DNA of 64,000 bases from a virus. The position numbers were made by a program, and so were the translations under genes. The stretch covers positions 20,509 through 84,508 of the IMG/VR virus record IMGVR_UViG_3300043444_000257; one strand, written 5' to 3'. The notes beneath the pieces are model-generated. The model had not been told where the DNA came from and did no database searches. It was given only the letters and a program-made list of their open reading frames with translations. Within the stretch, counting starts at the first letter, position 1; the number at the start of each line of letters is the position of its first letter. Shown piece by piece: positions 5,718 to 24,305 of this stretch.

Positions 5718-6566
5718 ATGAATGCACCACCAAAGATAAAATACCTAACCAACAAAGATCTGTTAAGAGAGATACACCTTAGTAAAAACACATATTGTTC
5801 CTTTACTAAACAAGAATACAGCGAGTATGACCTAATTGTTACGAGCTTAGAAAAAATCAATGTCAGAACAATAGCAGAAGCTAAACGAAATCGAGCAGCA
5901 AAACTTTCTAAGAAAGCACACGAAGCTGCTGTGCTAGCTGAAGGCAAAAAGCTCAGCGCAAAAGATTTTGAAATCGATTATAAAAAAGTTGCCAAGCAAG
6001 ATGTAGTTTTCCGCATCATGACTTTTGAACATGTGCCGCTGGCACCGGGTCGCAAAAAGACATTAAAGAATACCGCAGACAGCCACGAGAAAGTAAACTT
6101 TCCTCCTTTTCAACATTGGAAGTTTGATGACAACGACAATCTAATATTAGTAGGAAAGAGTCATTGGAAAGGCGGCTTAAAAACCGGAACATTCTCAAAA
6201 GATCACGGGCAGATGACTGATAATCTAGCTCGTATGTTTTTAAAGCTCTGCGAAAGGTATGCTACTCGTGGTAACGTCCGAGGTTATACCTACAACGACG
6301 AAATGAAAGGTCAGGCTATTTTACAGCTTACCCAGATAGGACTACAATTCGATGAAAGTAAATCTGATAATCCTTTTGCTTATTATACTGCTGCCGTTAC
6401 TAATTCATTCGTTAGAATCATCAACATCGAAAAACGTAACCAAAACATTAGAGATGACATATTGGAGATGAACGGAATGAATCCAAGTTGGACTCGCCAA
6501 AATAGCGGAGGAGGCAGCGGAGCAGCTTCGGCTCCGATTACGATCGATACCTCCGATTGGGATTGA
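5718..6566 (+). CDS. gp55: Late-transcription sigma factor gp55-like
   Basis: KYLTNKDLL, NVRGYTYNDEMKGQAI and FDESKSDNPFAYYT motifs typical of gp55. Upstream of gp47/gp46 as in T4-like phages. SD AGGAG upstream. Confidence 0.85.
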   Translation: MNAPPKIKYLTNKDLLREIHLSKNTYCSFTKQEYSEYDLIVTSLEKINVRTIAEAKRNRAAKLSKKAHEAAVLAEGKKLSAKDFEIDYKKVAKQDVVFRIMTFEHVPLAPGRKKTLKNTADSHEKVNFPPFQHWKFDDNDNLILVGKSHWKGGLKTGTFSKDHGQMTDNLARMFLKLCERYATRGNVRGYTYNDEMKGQAILQLTQIGLQFDESKSDNPFAYYTAAVTNSFVRIINIEKRNQNIRDDILEMNGMNPSWTRQNSGGGSGAASAPITIDTSDWD

Positions 6567-6597: not shown

Positions 6598-7608
6598 ATG
6601 AATCTATTCAAAAAAGCAGCCTGTTTTACAGATATACATTTTGGTTTAAAGAGTGGCAGTAGAACACACAACATTGACTGTGAAGAGTTTGTCAAATGGT
6701 TTTGTGAAGCTGCTAAAGCTGAAGGTGCAGAGACTTGTATCTTCCTAGGCGACTGGCATCACAATCGCTCGACTACAGATGTCAGCACAATGAATTATAC
6801 ATTGTCTAACCTAGAACATCTAAGTCAAAACTTCGAACGTGTATATTTTATCCTAGGTAACCACGATCTATTCTATAAGGACAAGCGTGAGATTAACTCA
6901 GTTGAGTTTATGCGTCTGTTCCCTAATGTAGTTCCTATCAGAGACATCTTTACAGAAGGCGATGTAACTATCATGCCTTGGCTCGTAGGAGACGAATGGC
7001 AGAAGGTTCCTAAGATCAAAAGCAGATATATTTTTGGTCATTTAGAATTGCCGCATTTTTACATGAATGCCATGGTGCAGATGCCAGATCATGGGCAATT
7101 ACAGGATGGGCATTTTGTTAATCAAGAATACGTATTCACTGGTCACTTCCATAAGCGTCAGCACAAAGGTAAAGTTGTTTATATCGGTAATGCTTTTCCT
7201 CACAACTATGCGGATGCCGGAGACGACGAGCGTGGTATGATGCTGTTAGAATGGGGTGGGAAACCCGAGTATAAAACTTGGCCTGCTCAACCGATATATA
7301 GAACATACAAACTTAGTCAGATCATCGACACACCAGATAAGTTACTGCGTGAAAAGATGCATTGCCGCGTAACTATCGACCTTCCTATTTCTTTTGAAGA
7401 AGCTAATTTCATTAGAGATACATTTATTCCTCAATACAATCTACGAGAATTAATGTTAATTCCCGAAAAGGTAGAAGTTGAAAGTGCTTCAGTGCCTATC
7501 GATATTAAATTTGAATCAGTTGATACTATCGTCATGAATCAAATCAATGCTATCGAAAGCGAGACCTACGATAAAGCACTGCTAATGGAGATTTATAAAG
7601 AACTATGA
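6598..7608 (+). CDS. gp47: Recombination nuclease subunit gp47 (Mre11/SbcD)
   Basis: Metallophosphoesterase motifs DIHFG, GDWHH, GNHD, GH, GHFH. Confidence 0.93.
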   Translation: MNLFKKAACFTDIHFGLKSGSRTHNIDCEEFVKWFCEAAKAEGAETCIFLGDWHHNRSTTDVSTMNYTLSNLEHLSQNFERVYFILGNHDLFYKDKREINSVEFMRLFPNVVPIRDIFTEGDVTIMPWLVGDEWQKVPKIKSRYIFGHLELPHFYMNAMVQMPDHGQLQDGHFVNQEYVFTGHFHKRQHKGKVVYIGNAFPHNYADAGDDERGMMLLEWGGKPEYKTWPAQPIYRTYKLSQIIDTPDKLLREKMHCRVTIDLPISFEEANFIRDTFIPQYNLRELMLIPEKVEVESASVPIDIKFESVDTIVMNQINAIESETYDKALLMEIYKEL

Positions 7609-9383
7609 TTAAGATTAAAAATCTTACTGTAAAAAATTTCATGAGCGTGGGTAATCAAACCCAAGCCATCGACTTTGACCGTGGACAATTAACTTTAGTT
7701 CTAGGTGAAAATTTAGATCTAGGAGGTGATGACTCGGGCGCCAGAAATGGCACAGGCAAAACTACAATCATCAACGGACTAAGTTATGCAATCTACGGTC
7801 AAGCCTTAACTAACATCAAGCGTGATAATCTTATCAATAAGATTAACGGCAAAGGAATGTTAGCAACTGTGACATTTGAAAAAAATGGCATAGAGTATCA
7901 CATCGAGAGAGGTCGTAAACCTAACTTACTAAAGTTTAGTATCAACGGACAAGAACAAGAATTACAAGATCTAGACGAAAGCCAAGGTGATTCTAGAGAA
8001 ACACAAAAGTCAATCGAAGATGTTATAGAAATGAGCCACGAAATGTTTAAACATCTTGTGGCATTGAACACCTATACTGAACCTTTCTTATCGATGAAAG
8101 CTGCTGATCAGCGTAGCATCATTGAACAACTGCTGGGAATTACACAGTTATCTGAAAAAGCAGAAACGTTGAAAGAACAGATTAAGGCAACTAAAGATTC
8201 TATCTCTGCAGAAAATACTAAAATTGAAACTATCAAGGCTAGCAACGAGCGCATTCAACAAAGCATCGAAAGCCTAGAAAGAAAACAAAGGCTTTGGAAC
8301 GACACAAAAGAAAAAAGTATTGAAACTATATTAAAAAGTATCGACCATCTAAGTGATATCGACATAGAACATGAAATAGTTAATCAACGGGCTTTGGTTG
8401 AGTGGACTAAAAACAAAAAAGAAAGAGACGGTCTATTAAGTTTGATCGCAAAACAAACTGCTACCATCGATAAAGAGCAGAAAGTTTTTGATAAACTGAC
8501 AAAAGAACTGGCGTCCCTAGCTGATCATAAGTGTCATAGCTGCGGACAGGACCTGCATGACGAGAAACATAACGTCATGGTCGAATCTAAGAACAAACAG
8601 GTCAACGAAAGCCGAGAGTCTCTCAAAGAACATCAGTTAGAATTAGCAGATCTCAATGAAGCATTATTACTGTTGGGTGATCCTACTGATTGTCCTAAGG
8701 TGATTTACGACAATTTAGAAGAAGCATTAAATCATAAAAACACCATAGACGGATTAAACAAAGATCTAGAGCTTAAGAAAGCTGAAGAAAATCCCTATGA
8801 CGAACAGATCGAAGAACTAAAAAACACTGCCCTACAAGAAGTTAACTGGGATCATGTTAACGACCTAACCAAGGTTAAAGATCATCAGGAGTTCTTACAT
8901 AAACTACTGACTAACAAAGACTCGTTTGTTCGCAAACGCATCATAGATCAAAACCTAGCATTTTTGAATCAACGATTAACCTATTATCTCGACAAGATCG
9001 GCTTACCACATATCGTAGAATTTCAGAACGATCTGTCTGTGATCATAACACAGCTTGGTCAAGATCTAGACTTTGATAATCTAAGCCGTGGAGAGCGCAA
9101 TAGATTGATACTTTCTCTAAGCTGGGCGTTCCGTGATGTGTGGGAAAACCTGTATCGTCCGATCAACCTATTGTTTATCGACGAGCTAGTAGATTCGGGT
9201 ATGGATGCCAGCGGTGTTGAAAGCTCGATCGCTGTGTTAAAACGTATGACCAGAGAAAGACAAAAGAATGTATTCTTAATTTCTCACAAAGACGAACTAA
9301 TGAATCGTGTAAACCACGTATTGAAAGTGATTAAAGAAAATGGATTCACTAGTTATTCAACTGATATTGAAATATTAGAATGA
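7605..9383 (+). CDS. gp46: Recombination ATPase gp46 (Rad50/SbcC)
   Basis: Walker A NGTGKTT, coiled coil with CHSC zinc hook, signature LSRGE, Walker B LLFIDE, ISH switch. Confidence 0.95.
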   Translation: MIKIKNLTVKNFMSVGNQTQAIDFDRGQLTLVLGENLDLGGDDSGARNGTGKTTIINGLSYAIYGQALTNIKRDNLINKINGKGMLATVTFEKNGIEYHIERGRKPNLLKFSINGQEQELQDLDESQGDSRETQKSIEDVIEMSHEMFKHLVALNTYTEPFLSMKAADQRSIIEQLLGITQLSEKAETLKEQIKATKDSISAENTKIETIKASNERIQQSIESLERKQRLWNDTKEKSIETILKSIDHLSDIDIEHEIVNQRALVEWTKNKKERDGLLSLIAKQTATIDKEQKVFDKLTKELASLADHKCHSCGQDLHDEKHNVMVESKNKQVNESRESLKEHQLELADLNEALLLLGDPTDCPKVIYDNLEEALNHKNTIDGLNKDLELKKAEENPYDEQIEELKNTALQEVNWDHVNDLTKVKDHQEFLHKLLTNKDSFVRKRIIDQNLAFLNQRLTYYLDKIGLPHIVEFQNDLSVIITQLGQDLDFDNLSRGERNRLILSLSWAFRDVWENLYRPINLLFIDELVDSGMDASGVESSIAVLKRMTRERQKNVFLISHKDELMNRVNHVLKVIKENGFTSYSTDIEILE

Positions 9384-9610
9384 GCACAGACTCTCATGAT
9401 AAGATGATCGAAGCGTTCCAGCAGTATTTTAAATGGCAGGAACGCTTTGAATATAAAGGCAGCGACGAGGCAGGCATTAAGGCACGATTTTGGTTATCAG
9501 AAATACGCAACGAGGCAAGTAAAAGGCGAGTAGAAATACAGGAAAAACGTGAGGCTCGTAAATTAGCCAGAAAAGGCAAGCTAGGTCGACCGCCAAAACT
9601 AACTAAGTGA
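9380..9610 (+). CDS. Small basic helical protein, possibly Hc1/histone-H1-like DNA-binding
   Basis: 76 aa, ATGA overlap with the gp46 stop. KGSDEAGIKAR..LSEI resembles the KGNKAAG.RAR motif of Hc1-like proteins. Lys/Arg-rich tail. Confidence 0.5.
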   Translation: MSTDSHDKMIEAFQQYFKWQERFEYKGSDEAGIKARFWLSEIRNEASKRRVEIQEKREARKLARKGKLGRPPKLTK

Positions 9611-10045
9611 GTGCAGTGGACTTATCAAAATCAACCCGTAGAAGAAATACCCGAAGGCTATATTGGCTTTGTTTATCTCATCACTAATCTCACGACCGGA
9701 CAAAAATACATAGGCAAAAAACTAGCACAGTTTAAACGCACAAAACCACCACTCAAAGGCAAAAAACTTAAACGCAGGAGCACAGTAGAAAGCGATTGGC
9801 GCGATTACTGGGGTTCTAGCGATAGGTTAAACGCAGATGTCCAAGCACTAGGTCCGGCAAATTTCACTAGAGAAATACTTTATCTTTGCAAATCCAAGGC
9901 AGAAATGTCATATTTAGAGGCTAGAGAGCAGTTTGAACGCAGGGTTTTAGAAACCGACGACTATTATAATGGCATTATAAACGTCAGAGTAGGCGGATCG
10001 AACATACTTAGGCAGCGTCTTTTAGAACAAAATCAGGCAAAATAA
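9611..10045 (+). CDS. Stand-alone GIY-YIG nuclease (T4 endonuclease II/DenA-like)
   Basis: GFVYLITNLTTGQKYIGKK ... DWRDYWGSS ... YLEAREQF ... YYNGII. 144 aa with no extra DNA-binding domain. Confidence 0.8.
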   Translation: MQWTYQNQPVEEIPEGYIGFVYLITNLTTGQKYIGKKLAQFKRTKPPLKGKKLKRRSTVESDWRDYWGSSDRLNADVQALGPANFTREILYLCKSKAEMSYLEAREQFERRVLETDDYYNGIINVRVGGSNILRQRLLEQNQAK

Positions 10046-10525
10046 TGCGGTTTTTTGGCTAGCGCAGGCCTAAGTTCGTGCGCTCTAAACCTGGTCAATC
10101 GTGGTCACAGGGACGGAATTCCATGCCGCAATGGTGCTCAACTACTACCCATTTATGGATGAAGATCGCTTAAAACCTGCGATTTAGTTGTTTGAAAAGG
10201 ATTTGTAAAGGTAAAATGAGGGGAGAAAAACCCCACGTCTGCAATAATGATAGCGTATTATTGTAGGCCGCCGTTGTATAAAGACGGAGCTCGAGGTATC
10301 GGACAACCGCCTCTGTAATGCTCTAACGCTGTGTGACATGATTCGACTCGGATAATGTTTTTTCTTTGCCCGGCAACGGGCAAAGTGTGACTGAAACGAT
10401 CTGGATAATGCTAAACTTTGCGCTTCGCGCAAAAAAATTATTTCATGCATCTATGAAATAATTAAAAGAAAAGGAATAATGCGCTGAGCGTAAGCGAAAG
10501 CGCAAAAGAGCTTTAGCTCTTTCTT
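10046..10525 (+). ncRNA. Putative large structured non-coding RNA and/or replication origin (family not recognised)
   Basis: About 520 nt intergenic with no credible ORF, carrying more than 10 hairpins. Examples: 10239-10266 (11 bp, two G-U pairs), 10364-10385 (9 bp, GCAA loop), 10417-10433, 10436-10463 and 10505-10522. Confidence 0.55.
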
Positions 10526-10529
10526 CCGA

Positions 10530-10535
10530 TAAATA
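10530..10535 (+). promoter_or_regulatory. Putative late promoter TAAATA
   Basis: GATAAATA about 30 nt upstream of ATG 10564. Confidence 0.55.
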
Positions 10536-10563
10536 AACTATAATTCTTTGGATTAATGACTAA

Positions 10564-12057
10564 ATGCGAATTACCCAAGTTCAAAACTCTTATCTCTACG
10601 AAGGCCTAGATCGCTCGACATCAAATTCTATGATGTTATGGGAAAGTGCGGGTTTCAAGTTACGTGAAGCAGCACTGACAGCCGATCAAATACAACAGAT
10701 ATTCCAATCCGTAGAGCAGGGTGCTACTGATGCTGGCAGTAATCGCACATTATTGGGCAAAGGCAAAGATGCCGCTTCGGCAGTTAACAAAGCCTGGGAA
10801 GATCTAAAGACAAAAATTCAAGACAGTGGTCCTATCAAAGCCGTAGATCAAAAGTATGACGACGTTGTAGCTAAGATCGAAAAAGGACTAGGTGGTCCAG
10901 ATAACGCTATCAATAAAATAATCCAATCATATCGTAAGTTTGCCAAAGAGCATCCTATCGCACAGGGTTTCATTTACTCTGCATTGATCGCTGCTGCTGG
11001 TATTTCAGGCGCAGGACTTGGTGGTGCAGCGGTATTAGGTCTGCTGAAGATGACAGACAAACTGTTGCAAGGTGAAAAGTTTTCGTCTGCAGCCTATTCA
11101 GGCGCCAAAACTGGTGCAATGGCCTTTGCTGCTTCCAAGCTAGGTGACTTAATCAAAGGCGTTAAACCTGGTGAACAGGTTCCTGAACCCGATCCGGGCT
11201 CAGTCGCTTGGGAAAAAAGAGATTTTGAAAACTACGATTACTACATGCATCCTAACAACGGCACTGTGGTCCAAGTGCCAAAAGGTATGGGTTCACCGTT
11301 TGATTCTAGCACAGCCGCAGGACAGGCCAGAGATCAATTAATAGCAGCAAACAATGCCGCTGGATCAGGAGCGAAGTCTGCACTGAAAGATCTAGCCACT
11401 GACCCAAATCTAAGTCCTATACAACAAAAGTTAGCCGCTGACCTTGCCGCAGGAAAAAATGTGCAGGGTGCAGATGAATTTATTAGAAAGGCCATAGCCG
11501 GTGCTGCTAAACGTCAATCTATGATCGGTGATAATCCAGATGGTTCGGCAGGCGAAGCCATGCGCCAGTTCATGTCTTTACAAAGATTGCAGCAGGCAGC
11601 AATGGGCGACAGCATTATACGCACAGGGAAGAAACTGTCTGAAGGTCAAGTCTATATGATCTTCAATCGTGTCATCCGTAAAGAACTCACAGAAGGACCT
11701 ATGGACGCGATCAAAGGAGCTGCTGGCAAAGCCGCTGGTTGGTTAGCGACCAAAGGCAAGAACTTAACTACTAAAATTACCGCAGACAAATTAAATTCTG
11801 CTTGGCAGAACGCAGGATCACCATCTGACCCTGATGATTTACATAATGTTATCACTGGAACCGGAGTTGCTCCTGACCTAGTCGATGCGGTCTACAAAGA
11901 TTTAGGAATCTCTAGTGCTGTTCAGCCCGCGCCTGACGAAGAAAAAGCCAAAAGCAAGACCGACTATGCGTCAATCAAAGAATTAGTATTAAAATTAGAT
12001 AAAAAAGGTAAACAGCGCATCGCTGCTTATCTGCAAAAACAACTAGGAACCGCTTGA
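10564..12057 (+). CDS. Probable internal virion/ejection protein, Ala/Gly-rich
   Basis: 497 aa after a late motif. Multiple L-x-E sites (LYEG, LREA, LSEG, LTEG), a hydrophobic Gly/Ala segment, and a C-terminal LDKKGKQRI motif shared with the next gene. Confidence 0.5.
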   Translation: MRITQVQNSYLYEGLDRSTSNSMMLWESAGFKLREAALTADQIQQIFQSVEQGATDAGSNRTLLGKGKDAASAVNKAWEDLKTKIQDSGPIKAVDQKYDDVVAKIEKGLGGPDNAINKIIQSYRKFAKEHPIAQGFIYSALIAAAGISGAGLGGAAVLGLLKMTDKLLQGEKFSSAAYSGAKTGAMAFAASKLGDLIKGVKPGEQVPEPDPGSVAWEKRDFENYDYYMHPNNGTVVQVPKGMGSPFDSSTAAGQARDQLIAANNAAGSGAKSALKDLATDPNLSPIQQKLAADLAAGKNVQGADEFIRKAIAGAAKRQSMIGDNPDGSAGEAMRQFMSLQRLQQAAMGDSIIRTGKKLSEGQVYMIFNRVIRKELTEGPMDAIKGAAGKAAGWLATKGKNLTTKITADKLNSAWQNAGSPSDPDDLHNVITGTGVAPDLVDAVYKDLGISSAVQPAPDEEKAKSKTDYASIKELVLKLDKKGKQRIAAYLQKQLGTA

Positions 12058-12058
12058 T

Positions 12059-13156
12059 ATGAGAATAAATGAACTAATCACAGAAAGTCAACAGCTAGAC
12101 GAAGGACCATTGGCCAACAAGATCGGCTCAGCAGTAGGCAAAGGTGTAGGCACACTGGCCAAAGGCGTGGGCGCCGTAGCCGGAGGTGTAGCAGGTCTAG
12201 GTGCTGCGGTTAAGAAAGGTTTTGCCGCAGGTAAGAAAACAGTGGCAGGTGCTGGAGACGATGACAGCGGTTCTGCCACAGCTCAAGCAGCGCCAGGTAG
12301 CACCACAGGCGAACCTGCACAACCAGCACCTACAGGCGGAGCAGCAGGAGCAGATGCTCAAAGCGGAGCCGCTACCGACACAGGAGCAGCACCAGCAGGT
12401 GGCAAGAAGCCAGGTTTTGTAGCAGGTCTCAAAGCAGGACTAGCAGGTAAAAAAGGACAGCCCGCCGCTGAACCAGCTGCTGGAGGAGCAGCACCAGCAG
12501 CAGCACCCGCAGGCGGTAGCGCAGCCGCACCAGCAGCAGGAGCCGAAGAAGAGCCCGCAGCAGCCGCAGCACCAACTGCACAAGATATTAATGCACAAGG
12601 TCCTGCAGGAACTGCACCCGCAAAACAACAGACAGGAGCAGCAGCACAGGCTATACAAAAAACTGCACAGGCCACACAAGATGCTGGCACAGAAAAAGCC
12701 GGACAGACAGTTTACGCTCAGGTTAAATCACAGATTAACAATCTAGATAAAAAAGGTAAACAACGTATCCTACAACTGCTACAGAAAAGTCTAACACAAC
12801 CAGATCCTAAAGCAGCCAAAGCAGGTGCAGCACCAGCAGCAGGCGCTCAACCAGCGGCTCAACCGGCAGCGGAACCAGCTGCTCAGGCAGCACCAGCAGC
12901 AGCACCTGCAGCTCAAGCAGCACCTGCTGCTGAACCAGCGGCTCCTAAGAAGAAAGGTCGAGCTAAGAAAGCCGCAGCACCAACACAGGCAGAAATTGAT
13001 GCTGACCGCGAACGCATTATGGGTGTGACATCTGATTCAAAGATTAACGCAGGAAATCCGTTAGCTGAAGCGTTGGCTGCTAAAGTTGAACAACACAAAC
13101 GTCAAATGTTTGAACAGAGTTTGCGCAAAGGCGAATTTAAAATTTTTACAAAATGA
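12059..13156 (+). CDS. Probable internal head protein, Ala/Pro/Gly low-complexity
   Basis: Starts MRINELITE...LDEGP. Long AAPA/QPAA repeats and an LDKKGKQRI motif. Confidence 0.55.
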   Translation: MRINELITESQQLDEGPLANKIGSAVGKGVGTLAKGVGAVAGGVAGLGAAVKKGFAAGKKTVAGAGDDDSGSATAQAAPGSTTGEPAQPAPTGGAAGADAQSGAATDTGAAPAGGKKPGFVAGLKAGLAGKKGQPAAEPAAGGAAPAAAPAGGSAAAPAAGAEEEPAAAAAPTAQDINAQGPAGTAPAKQQTGAAAQAIQKTAQATQDAGTEKAGQTVYAQVKSQINNLDKKGKQRILQLLQKSLTQPDPKAAKAGAAPAAGAQPAAQPAAEPAAQAAPAAAPAAQAAPAAEPAAPKKKGRAKKAAAPTQAEIDADRERIMGVTSDSKINAGNPLAEALAAKVEQHKRQMFEQSLRKGEFKIFTK

Positions 13157-13569
13157 AAATCAATGAAATAGTTGTAGAAAGTGATGTCGGTGACATTGCC
13201 AATCTCAGTGCTAAGAATGTTGGCTCTGGTTACGACGCTGTCAACAAATTATTTTCGCCTTCACAATGGTTTAAAGGCAGTGTAAAAACTGACGACGAAC
13301 CAGCTGTTCAAAAAACCAGTCCTAAAACAATCAAACCTTCGTCGACACAGCATCTAGAAAGAGAAGCTGTGATTGACGCTAGTCAAGGTAAAGAATTATT
13401 TAGAAACGATCTAGCACAGATTAAAACTGTCTATGGAAAAATTAAGTCTGGAGATATTGCTGTAAATGATTCTAACAATACTATGTTAGCTCTTAAAGCA
13501 GTGATTAAAGGCCAACCTCTAGACGATCAACAAAAAGTGTTATTAGCCCAGCTAGCCAAACAACTTTAA
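13153..13569 (+). CDS. Probable internal head protein
   Basis: Starts MKINEIVVE, similar to the previous gene. ATGA overlap. Confidence 0.5.
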   Translation: MKINEIVVESDVGDIANLSAKNVGSGYDAVNKLFSPSQWFKGSVKTDDEPAVQKTSPKTIKPSSTQHLEREAVIDASQGKELFRNDLAQIKTVYGKIKSGDIAVNDSNNTMLALKAVIKGQPLDDQQKVLLAQLAKQL

Positions 13570-23904: not shown

Positions 23905-23923
23905 TCCTAGGAAAAACGAAATC

Positions 23924-23947
23924 AAAAAGGACCTTCGGGTCCTTTTT
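23924..23947 (+). terminator. Rho-independent terminator after gp23
   Basis: AAAAAGGACC-TTCG-GGTCCTTTTT, a cUUCGg tetraloop with a U-tract. Confidence 0.9.
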
Positions 23948-23966
23948 GTTTGGCTTAAATATCTAC

Positions 23967-24236
23967 ATGCACGTAGAAAGTGACAACGACTTCCTAGAAC
24001 TAAGACGTCAATTAAGGGCGTGGCGTAAACGTTTTCCGATGTTCAACCATGACATAAATCAAATAGAGCACATCGTAGAACAGCACATACAAAATTTTGC
24101 CATAGCAGGTGTGCATTATAGACAAACTAAAAGTAAAAAATATTTAGAAATAGCGCAGAAAGAATTAGACGAAATCAATAGGGTATTGTCTATAGTAGAA
24201 AAATTAGAACTAATGGCTATGCTAAGTCAAGCATAA
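23967..24236 (+). CDS. Hypothetical helical protein
   Basis: ATG 23967 (MHVESDND) lies 5 nt after TAAATA 23956-23961. The track's start at 23946 falls within the terminator. Confidence 0.6.
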   Translation: MHVESDNDFLELRRQLRAWRKRFPMFNHDINQIEHIVEQHIQNFAIAGVHYRQTKSKKYLEIAQKELDEINRVLSIVEKLELMAMLSQA

Positions 24237-24305
24237 ATAAAGTATCTAGAAGATTGTGTGGATGCCACCATGCAGACCTAGAACGTCACTCAAAGGAGAA
24301 ATCAA

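What the first reader, a model, noticed from the sequence alone, without database searches (positions are those of the whole stretch)
9611..10563. GIY-YIG nuclease followed immediately by a ~520-nt densely structured non-coding element
Seen: the largest intergenic gap in the window starts right at the nuclease stop and holds many stems. These are AGCGCA/TGCGCT (10061-10084), CAACTA/TAGTTG enclosing two inner stems (~10139-10190), an 11-bp stem with two G-U pairs (10239-10266, favouring plus-strand RNA), nested GAGC/GAGG/CGG stems (~10286-10323) and a 9-bp stem with a GCAA tetraloop (10364-10385). I do not recognise tRNA, tmRNA, RNase P or group I/II intron cores. Inference: an unclassified large ncRNA co-transcribed with gp47-gp46-nuclease, possibly forming an RNP with the small nuclease (which has no separate DNA-binding domain but a basic KRTKPPLKGKKLKRR insert), or an R-loop/primer RNA for replication.
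Basis: partly seen in the sequence, partly recalled or inferred. Interest (0 to 1): 0.8.

Follow-up and report, generated by a model that had tools for sequence, protein, structure and literature searches.

The report
Large knotted phage RNA behind nuclease
The gene-free stretch behind a small nuclease gene of this uncultured freshwater T4-like phage encodes a real, heavily knotted non-coding RNA of roughly 450-480 bases whose first third is an already catalogued orphan motif, and nothing shows that it guides the nuclease.

Summary
10046-10563 is the longest stretch without an ORF of 100 aa or more.

It is not unclassified: 10057-10193 is a full-length match to Rfam RF01718, the Polynucleobacter-1 RNA (100.6 bits), an orphan motif of 2010. 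The RNA is about three times longer than that model. In 117 of 119 related viral loci the gap is conserved. Of 101 proposed pairs, 72 show compensatory changes, including four pseudoknots.

The RNA starts two bases after the nuclease stop codon and ends in a terminator-like hairpin just before a late-promoter-like GATAAATA. Its 3' part carries two identical, fast-evolving short boxes with no partner in cis.

A guide or RNP role for the GIY-YIG nuclease is not supported:
- The RNA also occurs behind an unrelated PD-(D/E)XK nuclease.
- It occurs with no nuclease in another phage type.
- It occurs near a mini tyrosine recombinase on a bacterial MAG contig.
- Three cultured-phage homologues of the nuclease that I looked at have no such RNA behind them.

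Its function is unknown. This scan has reported the same RNA before on other DNA.

The parts
9611..10045 (+). SegE-type GIY-YIG nuclease gene, 144 aa, catalytic domain only. It is the neighbour of the RNA, not shown to be its partner.
   Evidence: Pfam PF19835, E=3.2e-36. PHROG 447, E=5.7e-40. Invariant in 71 distinct homologues: G19, V21, Y22, Y33, G35, R87, E103, N120.
10047..10051 (+). 5' strand of pseudoknot PKa. It pairs with the loop 10125-10129 of hairpin P3 and marks the 5' limit of the RNA, two bases after the stop codon.
   Evidence: Cognate variants GCGGU:GCCGC, GCAGU:GCUGC, UCAGU:GCUGA, ACAGU:GCUGU, GUAGU:GCUAC, CCAUCAU:GUGAUGG. Three of 4 pairs show changes on both sides.
10057..10193 (+). 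Module A, the Rfam RF01718 Polynucleobacter-1 motif. Helices: P1 10061-66/10079-84, P2 10090-93/10108-11, P3 10121-24/10131-34, P4 10139-44/10185-90, P4a, P4b 10164-69/10179-84. Also the short pairing 10057-59/10068-70.
   Evidence: cmscan 100.6 bits, model positions 1-141 of 141. Covariation in P1 (4 of 6 pairs), P4 (5 of 6) and P4b (4 of 6).
10220..10332 (+). Module B, not in Rfam. It holds hairpin P5 (10220-23/10231-34) and hairpin P6 (10237-48/10257-68), whose stem is hypervariable. Pseudoknot PKc joins the P6 loop 10250-56 to 10326-32. P7 is 10287-90/10320-23 and P8 is 10293-97/10309-13. Pseudoknot PKd is 10273-76/10304-07.
   Evidence: P6, 12 of 12 pairs with changes on both sides. PKc, 6 of 7, 98.2% of cells paired. 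P7, 4 of 4. PKd, 2 of 4, 98.1% paired. Also.
10331..10357 (+). Unit 1 of the twin-box module: GUGUGAC, a linker, ACUC, then box 1 (GGAUAAU, 10350-10356).
   Evidence: The box 6-mer is identical to that of unit 2 in the window and in all 153 loci that the script kept. Columns 10350/10403, 10351/10404 and 10354/10407 hold the same letter in 119 of 119 distinct sequences, and 10356/10409 in 118 of 119.
10364..10385 (+). Hairpin P10 between the two units (9 bp, GCAA loop in the window).
   Evidence: Sequence and MFE fold. Pairs 10367/10382 and 10368/10381 covary. The A1 alignment is shifted here, so only 58% of cells pair.
10385..10410 (+). Unit 2 of the twin-box module: GUGUGAC, a linker, AUCU, then box 2 (GGAUAAU, 10403-10409).
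   Evidence: In one search, 53 of 55 protein-seeded loci have a twin 7-mer, against 0 of 1100 shuffles.
10417..10433 (+). Hairpin P11 (UUUGCG-CUUCG-CGCAAA). Its stem varies and its loop is kept.
   Evidence: Pairs 10420/10430, 10421/10429 and 10422/10428 covary. Listed as terminator-like by the simple scan.
10434..10476 (+). A/U-rich variable spacer. In the window it holds an 11-bp hairpin at 10436-46/10453-63.
   Evidence: 72% gaps and 14% identity to the window at 10437-10456 across 80 sequences. The hairpin appears in the fold.
10481..10503 (+). Module D: stem 10481-85/10499-503 around an internal loop UGA / GAAA, and a 2-bp GC-GUAA-GC cap.
   Evidence: All 5 outer pairs have changes on both sides, and 97-99% of cells pair (helices 18-20). 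Conserved also in the sister clade with a different 5' domain.
10505..10526 (+). Terminator-like hairpin P13 (10505-11/10516-22) with a short U-rich tail. Probable 3' end of the RNA; not shown.
   Evidence: Pairs 10505/22, 10506/21, 10507/20, 10508/19, 10509/18 and 10510/17 covary. The window's tail is too poor in U for the scan. Many relatives read GCUCGUUUUU.
10528..10535 (+). GATAAATA, resembling the T4 late promoter (consensus TATAAATA, recalled), 29 nt before the ATG at 10564. It belongs to the downstream gene, not to the RNA.
   Evidence: Sequence. ATAAATAA is kept at this place in the closer relatives (columns about 626-633).

Best explanation
The gap encodes one modular, + strand, multiply pseudoknotted non-coding RNA of about 450-480 nt. 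It runs from 10047 to the hairpin at 10505-10522.

Transcription. The RNA is most likely transcribed as the 3' end of the gp47-gp46-orf76-nuclease operon. No promoter or conserved sequence lies between the stop codon and the first pseudoknot strand. It is closed by a terminator-like hairpin just before the late-promoter-like GATAAATA of the next gene.

Modules.
- The first third is the catalogued orphan motif Polynucleobacter-1.
- A second knotted domain, a twin-box module and a 3' stem-loop module follow. None of these is catalogued.
- The modules recombine. A sister clade keeps the twin-box and 3' modules behind a different structured 5' domain.

Independence from the nuclease. The RNA is a self-contained gene. 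The same RNA sits behind a PD-(D/E)XK nuclease, behind a winged-helix gene in a different phage backbone, and upstream of a mini tyrosine recombinase on a bacterial MAG contig.

How it works (inferred, not shown). It acts in trans as a folded RNA. The knotted 5' domains give a stable scaffold or a binding surface. The two always-identical, fast-changing boxes are read by base pairing with a short target that is not encoded next to the RNA.

Why nucleases sit next to it (inferred). A gene conserved at the nucleotide level makes a good landing site for selfish DNA-cutting or DNA-joining genes. I recall the T4 homing endonuclease gene segB, inside the tRNA gene cluster, as a precedent.
For: RNA and structure (shown):
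- Rfam match at 100.6 bits.
- 117 of 119 viral loci found through a motif pattern match the gap. In 54 the match is at least 479 nt long at 72.5-95.0% identity, and in 42 it is 300-478 nt.
- Of 101 pairs in 21 helices, 88.5% of cells pair, against 77.1% after shuffling and 37-45% with slid partners. 72 pairs have changes on both sides. The covariation score is 0.348 against 0.151, reached by 0 of 500 shuffles.
- Pseudoknots PKa, PKc and PKd covary.
- Fold z-score is -4.64 on + and -2.45 on -.
- The region is non-coding.

Autonomy (shown):
- Among the 119 pattern-seeded loci, 112 have the GIY-YIG gene directly upstream (4 of them cut by a contig end), 2 have a PD-(D/E)XK gene, 2 have neither, and 3 have no upstream DNA.
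- Pfam on the replacement genes: PF24608, E=1.9e-25, and HTH_39.
- No GIY-YIG homologue anywhere in the 121-kb record of L068 or the 19.8-kb record of L012.
- L123 has the Rfam module, a twin box and a recombinase (PF00589, E=1.9e-23).
- Homologues of the nuclease in cultured phages have no such gap.

Modularity (shown):
- Six loci of the group whose nuclease is 77-80% identical were tested with the full-length profile. They match only the equivalent of 10338-10527.
- Their 5' domain is different, has no Rfam hit, and is itself structured: 19 of 53 predicted pairs are compensatory in 11 sequences.

Twin boxes (shown):
- Identical in every locus that the script kept.
- 53 of 55 protein-seeded loci have them, against 0 of 1100 shuffles.
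- The word on L123 is quite different, AUCGAAAU.

Expression (weak):
- Contigs of 3 of the 4 RNA runs laid cover the RNA. One 1149-nt contig spans 9261-10405.
Against: - No transcript ends are known. The runs laid were contigs, not reads, and the tool warns that RNA libraries can hold DNA.
- The window's P13 hairpin has a poor U tail and fails the terminator scan.
- Within this clade the nuclease and the RNA are almost inseparable: 112 of 116 loci with upstream DNA, and 53 of 55 the other way round. The nuclease keeps its catalytic residues. That is not the sporadic pattern of a selfish homing gene, so a functional tie cannot be excluded.
- No reader of the boxes was found. There is no Watson-Crick partner column in the RNA. 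Further copies within 3 kb are not in excess: 54 seen, about 48 expected. The 84.5-kb record holds no convincing complement.
- The trans-acting role is inference only.
Confidence: 0.6

Rival explanations
1. Nuclease-RNA system. The RNA binds the neighbouring DNA-cutting or DNA-joining enzyme and aims or regulates it, with the two boxes as programmable recognition segments.
For: - Very tight linkage. The GIY-YIG gene ends a median of 16 nt before the Rfam module in 112 of 116 loci with upstream DNA. 53 of 55 loci seeded with the nuclease carry the twin-box RNA.
- Where GIY-YIG is missing in a T4-like backbone, another nuclease (PD-(D/E)XK) fills the same slot. On a bacterial MAG contig a 194-aa tyrosine recombinase lies about 800 nt downstream.
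- The nuclease has no separate DNA-binding domain.
- The boxes are identical within an RNA and differ between RNAs.
Against: - Three unrelated enzyme folds would have to use one RNA.
- L012 and L081 carry the full RNA with no nuclease beside it and no GIY-YIG homologue in the 19.8-kb record.
- The nuclease family is in 487 cultured-phage records. In the three I looked at, no such RNA follows it.
- The basic stretch is part of the ordinary SegE_GIY-YIG profile.
- No sequence complementary to the boxes is enriched nearby.
- The boxes are only 6-8 nt long.
Confidence: 0.12
2. Cis-regulatory leader or attenuator, riboswitch-like. A ligand- or protein-binding 5' domain controls termination at 10505-10526 and so controls read-through into the downstream genes. 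Weinberg et al. 2010 marked the motif 'y y ?'. As I recall, the second mark stands for 'cis-regulatory'.
For: - Invariant junction sequences such as CUAAACCUGG and CACAGGGA-GGAA look like a binding pocket.
- A terminator-like hairpin closes the element.
- 5' domains are swapped in front of a constant 3' platform.
- Table entry in PMC2864571.
Against: - About 310 nt and several stable hairpins separate the Rfam module from the terminator-like hairpin.
- The next gene has its own late-promoter-like site, and it differs between loci: orf365-like, orf497-like or others. The upstream gene is constant.
- No alternative pairing partner for either box was found.
Confidence: 0.12
3. A DNA-level element, not an RNA: a replication origin or R-loop primer region, or simply the recognition site of the adjacent homing-type nuclease.
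For: - A/T-rich palindromes at 10436-10463 and several perfect hairpins in 10417-10526.
- As I recall, T4 origins use a transcript as primer.
- Nuclease genes of two families sit at the same border.
Against: - Compensatory changes keep RNA pairs, G-U pairs included, in 72 of 101 pairs.
- The + strand folds far better than the - strand.
- Long-range pseudoknots covary.
- The A/T-rich palindrome lies in the least conserved part, with 72% gaps.
Confidence: 0.06

Closest known systems
Polynucleobacter-1 RNA motif (Rfam RF01718; Weinberg et al. 2010, Genome Biol 11:R31, PMC2864571; I read table passages only)
   Same: 10057-10193 matches the whole 141-position model at 100.6 bits. The habitat fits: the paper's table lists fresh water and estuary, and the DNA runs that hold the stretch are labelled mostly freshwater or aquatic. 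The function is unknown in both.
   Different: The Rfam model covers only the first third. Here a further pseudoknot strand lies 5' of the model (10047-51), and about 330 nt of covarying structure follow it. No other Rfam family matches those parts. The carriers here are T4-like phage contigs. Only 3 hits were found in 185,579 species genomes, all on MAG contigs.
Large ornate phage-associated RNAs GOLLD and ROOL (search listing and start of the abstract of bioRxiv 10.1101/2024.12.08.627333; the rest is recalled)
   Same: Several hundred nucleotides long, many helices and pseudoknots, carried by phages, found by comparative genomics, function unknown.
   Different: There is no sequence or model match: no Rfam hit of these families. 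This RNA is smaller. It is linked to nuclease or recombinase genes, not to tRNA genes. Nothing is known here about multimer formation.
Free-standing homing endonuclease genes beside RNA genes, e.g. T4 segB in the tRNA cluster (recalled, no call)
   Same: A GIY-YIG gene of the Seg type lies directly beside a highly conserved structured-RNA gene. A second nuclease family can occupy the same slot.
   Different: This nuclease lacks a DNA-binding domain (144 aa). It is present in 112 of 116 loci, not sporadically. It diverges in step with gp46, at 52-97% against 52-99% identity. Its homologues form a widespread phage family. Cleavage of this DNA is untested.
RNA-guided mobile-element enzymes: IS110 bridge RNA, the omega RNAs of IscB and TnpB (recalled, no call)
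   Same: A structured RNA encoded next to a DNA-cutting or DNA-joining enzyme. It carries short segments that vary between elements. Bridge RNAs also have two recognition loops.
   Different: The enzymes here are GIY-YIG, PD-(D/E)XK or a tyrosine recombinase, none known to be RNA-guided. The two boxes are identical to each other, only 6-8 nt long, and no matching target was found. The RNA also occurs without such an enzyme beside it.

Membership tests
Rfam RF01718 Polynucleobacter-1 RNA | Covariance-model score at or above the curated gathering score (37 bits) | tested here: met
   100.6 bits, E=1.4e-20 over the whole window. The same score in the own-genome search.
Rfam RF01718 Polynucleobacter-1 RNA | Full-length match with the model's helices kept | tested here: met
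   Model positions 1-141 of 141, not truncated. P1, P4 and P4b covary across 80 sequences.
Rfam RF01718 Polynucleobacter-1 RNA | A stand-alone element of about 140 nt, as modelled | tested here: not met
   Covarying structure continues 5' (10047-51) and about 330 nt 3' of the model. On the MAG contig L123 too, a twin box follows the module at +337 and +395.
GIY-YIG nuclease, SegE type (Pfam PF19835) | Profile match above the curated cut-off (25 bits) | tested here: met
   124.7 bits, E=3.2e-36, residues 3-123.
GIY-YIG nuclease, SegE type (Pfam PF19835) | Conserved motif residues: the two Tyr of GIY and YIG, then Arg, Glu and Asn (roles recalled) | tested here: met
   Y22, Y33, R87, E103 and N120 are invariant in 71 distinct homologues and in alignment A2. 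Which Arg is catalytic is my assignment.
Free-standing homing endonuclease (Seg-like) | A separate DNA-binding domain that gives long-site specificity | tested here: not met
   144 aa, of which 121 lie in the catalytic-domain profile. Lengths are 141-162 aa in 71 homologues.
Free-standing homing endonuclease (Seg-like) | Sporadic presence or absence among close relatives | tested here: not met
   Present in 112 of 116 loci that have upstream DNA. Replaced, not absent, in 2.
Free-standing homing endonuclease (Seg-like) | Cuts the allele that lacks the gene, close to its own insertion site | not testable with these tools
   Needs cleavage assays.
RNA-guided nuclease systems (omega RNA or bridge RNA type) | The RNA always goes with its enzyme, and a variable segment matches a target | tested here: not met
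   The RNA occurs without an adjacent enzyme in L012 and L081. The enzyme family occurs without the RNA in three cultured phages. No target match is enriched.
Riboswitch or cis-regulatory leader | Aptamer directly coupled to an expression platform in front of a consistent set of regulated genes | tested here: inconclusive
   A terminator-like hairpin exists. But the downstream genes vary, a late-promoter-like site intervenes, and no alternative pairing was found.
tRNA, tmRNA, RNase P RNA, group I or II intron, known ribozymes | Match to the respective detector or Rfam model | tested here: not met
   ARAGORN found 0 genes in the window. Apart from RF01718, no Rfam family reached its gathering score in the window or scored above 19.1 bits at E up to 10 in 9900-10700.
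Type III toxin-antitoxin (ToxIN-like) | An array of RNA repeats upstream of an endoribonuclease toxin (recalled definition) | tested here: not met
   The RNA lies downstream. There are only two short boxes. The protein is a GIY-YIG domain.

The most novel reading that the evidence does not exclude
The twin-box RNA is a programmable recognition RNA for mobile DNA. Its two identical, fast-evolving boxes pair with a short DNA or RNA word. In this way it aims or licenses whichever small DNA-cutting or DNA-joining enzyme is encoded beside it: GIY-YIG, PD-(D/E)XK or a mini tyrosine recombinase. That would be a new class of RNA-directed nuclease and recombinase systems, shared by T4-like phages and bacterial islands.
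Probability: 0.06. Interest if true: 0.9.

Novelty: new variant of a known kind. Interest (0 to 1): 0.55.

Why it matters
An orphan 141-nt Rfam motif from 2010 turns out to be the 5' third of a much larger RNA with four pseudoknots. That RNA is carried by hundreds of uncultured freshwater T4-like phage contigs, and in a variant form by a sister clade.

RNAs of this size and complexity are rare in bacteria and phages, and have usually turned out to do something unusual.

The modular build gives concrete handles for experiments: exchangeable 5' domains, and a constant 3' module with two identical boxes that change together. So does the recurrent position beside nuclease and recombinase genes.

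For annotation, two points follow. The gap should be marked as an RNA gene. The neighbouring protein family, named 'NAD synthetase' in many GenBank phage records, is a GIY-YIG nuclease domain.

Tried and rejected
Tried and rejected, or led nowhere:
- tRNA or tmRNA: ARAGORN found none.
- Other Rfam families in the gap: only chance-level hits of 19.1 bits or less. None in the sister-clade version.
- A protein gene on the minus strand (88-aa ORF 10184-10450). Stop-free stretches are common on that strand, but their position and frame are not conserved and the translations align only in short pieces.
- Reading the boxes as 'sense codon + stop codon', that is, translational bypass with take-off and landing sites. 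In most loci the word is NNAURA. But L024 and L111 carry GGAAAAU and L123 carries AUCGAAAU. In several loci no ORF with a start codon reads into unit 1 (my reading).
- A partner for the boxes inside the RNA. Mutual information over 119 and over 80 sequences gives only the other box as partner, with no Watson-Crick column.
- Local hairpins formed by each unit: RNAalifold gives none.
- Extra copies of the box word within 3 kb: 54 found in 83 distinct loci, about 48 expected, with no preferred place.
- A complement of box plus GUGAC in the 84.5-kb record: 2 places, about what I estimate for chance. No TTATCC followed by GGG.
- A third copy of the box on the 6.5-kb L123 contig: none.
- Cultured phages. 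blastn of 9380-10700 against 50,697 records found no match. Melnitz has no RF01718 match and no twin-box RNA behind its nuclease homologue.
- Relatives with solved structures: none by sequence. The best profile hit has E=0.17.
- RNA-seq depth cannot be used to rank genes, because the runs were contigs. The higher summed depth on the nuclease gene is not a finding.
- The runs X15-X20 hold only a small share of the stretch. I name no habitat from them.
- Literature. Full-text searches for 'Polynucleobacter-1' (1 paper), for GOLLD + ROOL + phage (9 papers) and for GIY-YIG + noncoding RNA + T4-like (3 papers) gave nothing on this RNA beyond Weinberg 2010. That paper's additional files were not open to me. 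They may show whether the authors saw the 3' extension or the gene neighbourhood.
Full report
**What lies at the coordinates.** The window comes from an 84.5-kb IMG/VR virus record with a T4-like gene order:
- a gp55-like ORF at 5718-6566;
- gp47 at 6598-7608 (Metallophos);
- gp46 at 7605-9383 (AAA_23/SMC_N);
- a 76-aa ORF at 9380-9610;
- a 144-aa ORF at 9611-10045 that matches Pfam SegE_GIY-YIG at E=3.2e-36.

The next long ORF starts at 10564. With ORFs of 100 aa or more, 10046-10563 is the longest uncovered stretch of the window: 518 nt, against 401 nt for the next. The + strand of 10046-10530 folds at -152.7 kcal/mol, z -4.64, and none of 100 shuffles is as good. The - strand reaches only z -2.45.

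**Known part.** A scan of the whole window against Rfam 15 gives one hit. 10057-10193 (+) is a full-length match (positions 1-141 of 141) to RF01718, the Polynucleobacter-1 RNA, at 100.6 bits against a gathering score of 37.
- Nothing else in 9900-10700 scores above 19.1 bits at E up to 10.
- ARAGORN finds no tRNA or tmRNA.
- In the paper library, only Weinberg et al. 2010 (PMC2864571) holds the name.

- blastn of the 518-nt gap matches 117 of the 119 loci.
- In 54 the match is at least 479 nt long, at 72.5-95.0% identity.
- In 42 it is 300-478 nt, at 68.7-84.1% identity.
- In 21 it is shorter; some of these are cut by contig ends.
- L024 and L111 are too diverged for blastn.

Of 100 sequences that span the region, 80 are distinct. 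Identity to the window stays at 0.62-0.90 in all but one 20-nt bin from 10057 to 10416 (0.49 at 10357-10376). It collapses in an indel-rich spacer (10437-10456: 72% gaps) and recovers at 10477-10536. The last 60 nt of the nuclease ORF are less conserved, at 0.57-0.64.

**Structure.** RNAalifold on the 80 sequences (alignment A1) predicts 54 pairs, 32 of them with compensatory changes. An all-against-all search for stacked, covarying pairs added long-range helices. I then wrote a model of 101 pairs in 21 helices with pseudoknots and had it counted on A1:
- 88.5% of cells form standard pairs, against 77.1% after shuffling and 37-45% when the 3' partners are slid by 1-3 columns.
- 72 pairs have changes on both sides, against 53.5 in shuffles.
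- The covariation score is 0.348 against 0.151, reached by 0 of 500 shuffles.

The best supported new elements are:
- hairpin P6 (10237-48/10257-68), with 12 of 12 pairs changed on both sides;
- pseudoknot PKc between its loop (10250-56) and 10326-32, with 6 of 7 pairs and 98.2% of cells paired;
- P7 (10287-90/10320-23), with 4 of 4;
- pseudoknot PKd (10273-76/10304-07), with 2 of 4 and 98.1% paired;
- the 3' stem 10481-85/10499-503, with 5 of 5.

Helices 16, 17 and 21 score lower in A1 because the alignment is shifted there. In a separate alignment of 119 distinct sequences of the 3' part, their pairs covary clearly.

A further pseudoknot, PKa, joins 10047-51 to the loop of hairpin P3 (10125-29). 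Cognate variants are GCGGU:GCCGC, GCAGU:GCUGC, UCAGU:GCUGA, ACAGU:GCUGU, GUAGU:GCUAC and CCAUCAU:GUGAUGG. The folded RNA therefore begins two bases after the stop codon TAA at 10043-45, outside the Rfam model.

The region is not coding. Indels against the window fall 134/978/323 into length classes 0/1/2 mod 3, and the minus-strand ORF is not conserved in place or frame.

**Modules.** The RNA reads as:
- A, the PKa strand plus the Rfam motif (10047-10193);
- B, the knotted domain (10220-10332);
- C, two units around hairpin P10 (10331-10410);
- hairpin P11 (10417-33);
- a variable A/U-rich spacer;
- D, a stem with a UGA/GAAA internal loop (10481-10503);
- a terminator-like hairpin (10505-22).

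GATAAATA at 10528-35 follows. It resembles the T4 late promoter TATAAATA (recalled) and lies 29 nt before the next ATG.

The modules recombine. I seeded a search with the nuclease protein and kept the 80 best of at least 596 relatives. A profile of modules A to C finds the RNA in 54 of them; 8 have too little downstream DNA; 18 give no hit. Those 18 have nucleases 76-80% identical to the window's. In those with enough downstream DNA, a gap of about 490 nt follows the gene. With a full-length profile, the six of them that I tested match only the equivalent of 10338-10527, that is modules C and D and the terminator. Their 5' part is different. It has no Rfam hit and is itself structured: 19 of 53 predicted pairs are compensatory in 11 sequences. 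L132, L134, L162 and L168 lack parts of the 5' modules.

**Twin boxes.** Each unit of module C reads GUGUGAC, a linker, ACUC (unit 1) or AUCU (unit 2), and then a short box. In the window the box is GGAUAAU, at 10350-56 and 10403-09.
- In the window and in all 153 loci that the script kept, the first six letters of the two boxes are the same. The script's own filter favoured like boxes. The words are GGAUAA, GCAUAA, AGAUAA, AGAUGA, ACAUGA and others.
- In 119 distinct sequences, the column pairs 10350/10403, 10351/10404 and 10354/10407 always hold the same letter, and 10356/10409 does in 118 of 119. They rank among the highest mutual-information pairs of the region. No column pairs with them in Watson-Crick fashion.
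- Of 55 protein-seeded loci with at least 480 nt downstream, 53 carry such a twin 7-mer, against 0 of 1100 shuffled segments.
- On the bacterial MAG contig L123 the word is AUCGAAAU, at +337 and +395 from the start of the Rfam module, again around a hairpin.

Identity, not complementarity, of two words that change together is most simply explained by one reader that recognises both by base pairing.

**Neighbours.** The 119 pattern-seeded loci were chosen without regard to the nuclease. Among them:
- 108 have the complete GIY-YIG gene and 4 a copy cut by the contig end. Its last aligned residue lies a median of 16 nt before the Rfam module.
- 2 (L068, L072) have a 171-aa PD-(D/E)XK endonuclease gene in the same slot, ending 8-10 nt before the module (PF24608, E=1.9e-25).
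- 2 (L012, L081, one phage type) have neither.
- 3 have no upstream DNA.

The 121-kb record of L068 holds no homologue of the GIY-YIG protein. L012 has a different backbone: cell-wall hydrolase, ATP-dependent DNA ligase, WYL_2, a winged-helix gene just upstream, and a D-Ala-D-Ala carboxypeptidase downstream. It still carries the RNA over profile positions 9-444 of 461.

In 185,579 species genomes the pattern occurs three times, always on MAG contigs. Two are short contigs with orf76 and the nuclease, so they are probably phage DNA. The third is L123, where a 194-aa tyrosine recombinase (PF00589, E=1.9e-23) lies about 800 nt downstream on the same strand.

**The nuclease.**
- Its identity to the window's protein runs from 52 to 97%, in step with gp46 at 52-99%.
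- G19, V21, Y22, Y33, G35, R87, E103 and N120 are invariant in 71 distinct sequences. It is therefore under selection as an enzyme; the catalytic roles are recalled.
- Residues 3-123 align colinearly with all 123 positions of the Pfam profile.
- The family is PHROG 447, named 'NAD synthetase' there. It occurs in 487 cultured-phage records, mostly cyanophages, and many of those records use the same name.
- In Melnitz-3 (66% identity), P-SSM7 and phiM19, no large gap follows the gene. Melnitz has no RF01718 match.
- No solved structure is related by sequence.

**Expression.** Twenty public runs hold the stretch or part of it. Six are on record as RNA, each with a small share. I laid four RNA runs from four studies; all are kept as contigs. 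Contigs of X15, X16 and X18 cover the RNA. One 1149-nt contig of X18 spans 9261-10405, which is orf76, the nuclease gene and the RNA up to unit 2. A 212-nt contig of X15 runs from 10047 to 10240, with a relative's nuclease 3' end before it. This fits co-transcription. It gives no ends and no strand, and does not exclude DNA carried in the libraries.

**Reading.**
- Shown: a conserved, + strand, multiply knotted RNA gene whose first third is RF01718; its modular build; its twin boxes; its occurrence with three different kinds of neighbour and with none.
- Inferred: it is made as the tail of the early or middle operon that ends with the nuclease gene. It works in trans. The boxes are read by base pairing. 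Nuclease and recombinase genes gather beside it because a gene conserved at the nucleotide level is a good landing site.
- Against the last point stands the near-fixed presence of an intact nuclease in this clade. That keeps a functional tie possible, so I leave the RNP reading at 0.12 and the bolder programmable-guide version at 0.06.

**Relation to earlier notes of this scan.** After I looked up the scan's notes. Several follow-up reports on other genomes describe the same RNA. One reports it beside small recombinases on bacterial islands. My reached the same picture independently. The notes led me to test L123 for the recombinase and for a twin box. So this finding is a further instance of something the scan has reported before on other DNA.

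Noticed in passing
L068:1124-1639 (-) and L072:4127-4642 (+): In two T4-like loci a 171-aa PD-(D/E)XK endonuclease gene (PF24608) replaces the GIY-YIG gene directly in front of the RNA. In L068 a 338-aa radical-SAM/SPASM ORF, and before it a 301-aa ORF with a CxxxCxxC-like start and no Pfam match, lie between gp46 and this nuclease.
   Followed up: partly
window 9611-10045 and GenBank records listed: The protein family of this nuclease (PHROG 447; 'T4-LIKE GC: 213' in P-SSM7) is named 'NAD synthetase' in many cultured-phage records. Pfam places it in the SegE-type GIY-YIG domain, so the name looks like a propagated misannotation.
   Followed up: partly
A1 columns about 340-380 (between window 10318 and 10320); loci L003, L008, L020, L071, L045, L103: Some relatives carry insertions of about 15 to 45 nt, A/T-rich and partly palindromic, on the 3' side of the P7 domain just before its closing strand. 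The RNA tolerates expansion there.
   Followed up: no
window 9380-9610: The 76-aa ORF between gp46 and the nuclease has a very basic C-terminal half and overlaps or abuts both neighbours (ATGA at 9380-9383; TGA then GTG at 9608-9613). It is found only in the closer clade (43-99% identity). It has no Pfam or PHROG match.
   Followed up: no
window 10564-13569: The three ORFs after the RNA (497, 365 and 138 aa) have no family match. They are the most variable part of the neighbourhood: in different loci, different combinations of them follow the RNA. The 365-aa protein is largely Ala/Pro/Gly-rich low-complexity sequence.
   Followed up: no
window 23905-24305: The second-largest stretch without an ORF of 100 aa or more (401 nt) in the window. 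I did not examine it.
   Followed up: no
L180:2951-3440 and the other loci of the group L177-L203: A sister clade has a different, also covarying, 5' RNA domain with invariant blocks such as AUGUCGACGUAGGUUGGGAAAGGUCAGAGCCCAUUG. It sits in front of the same twin-box and 3' modules, and no Rfam family matches it.
   Followed up: partly
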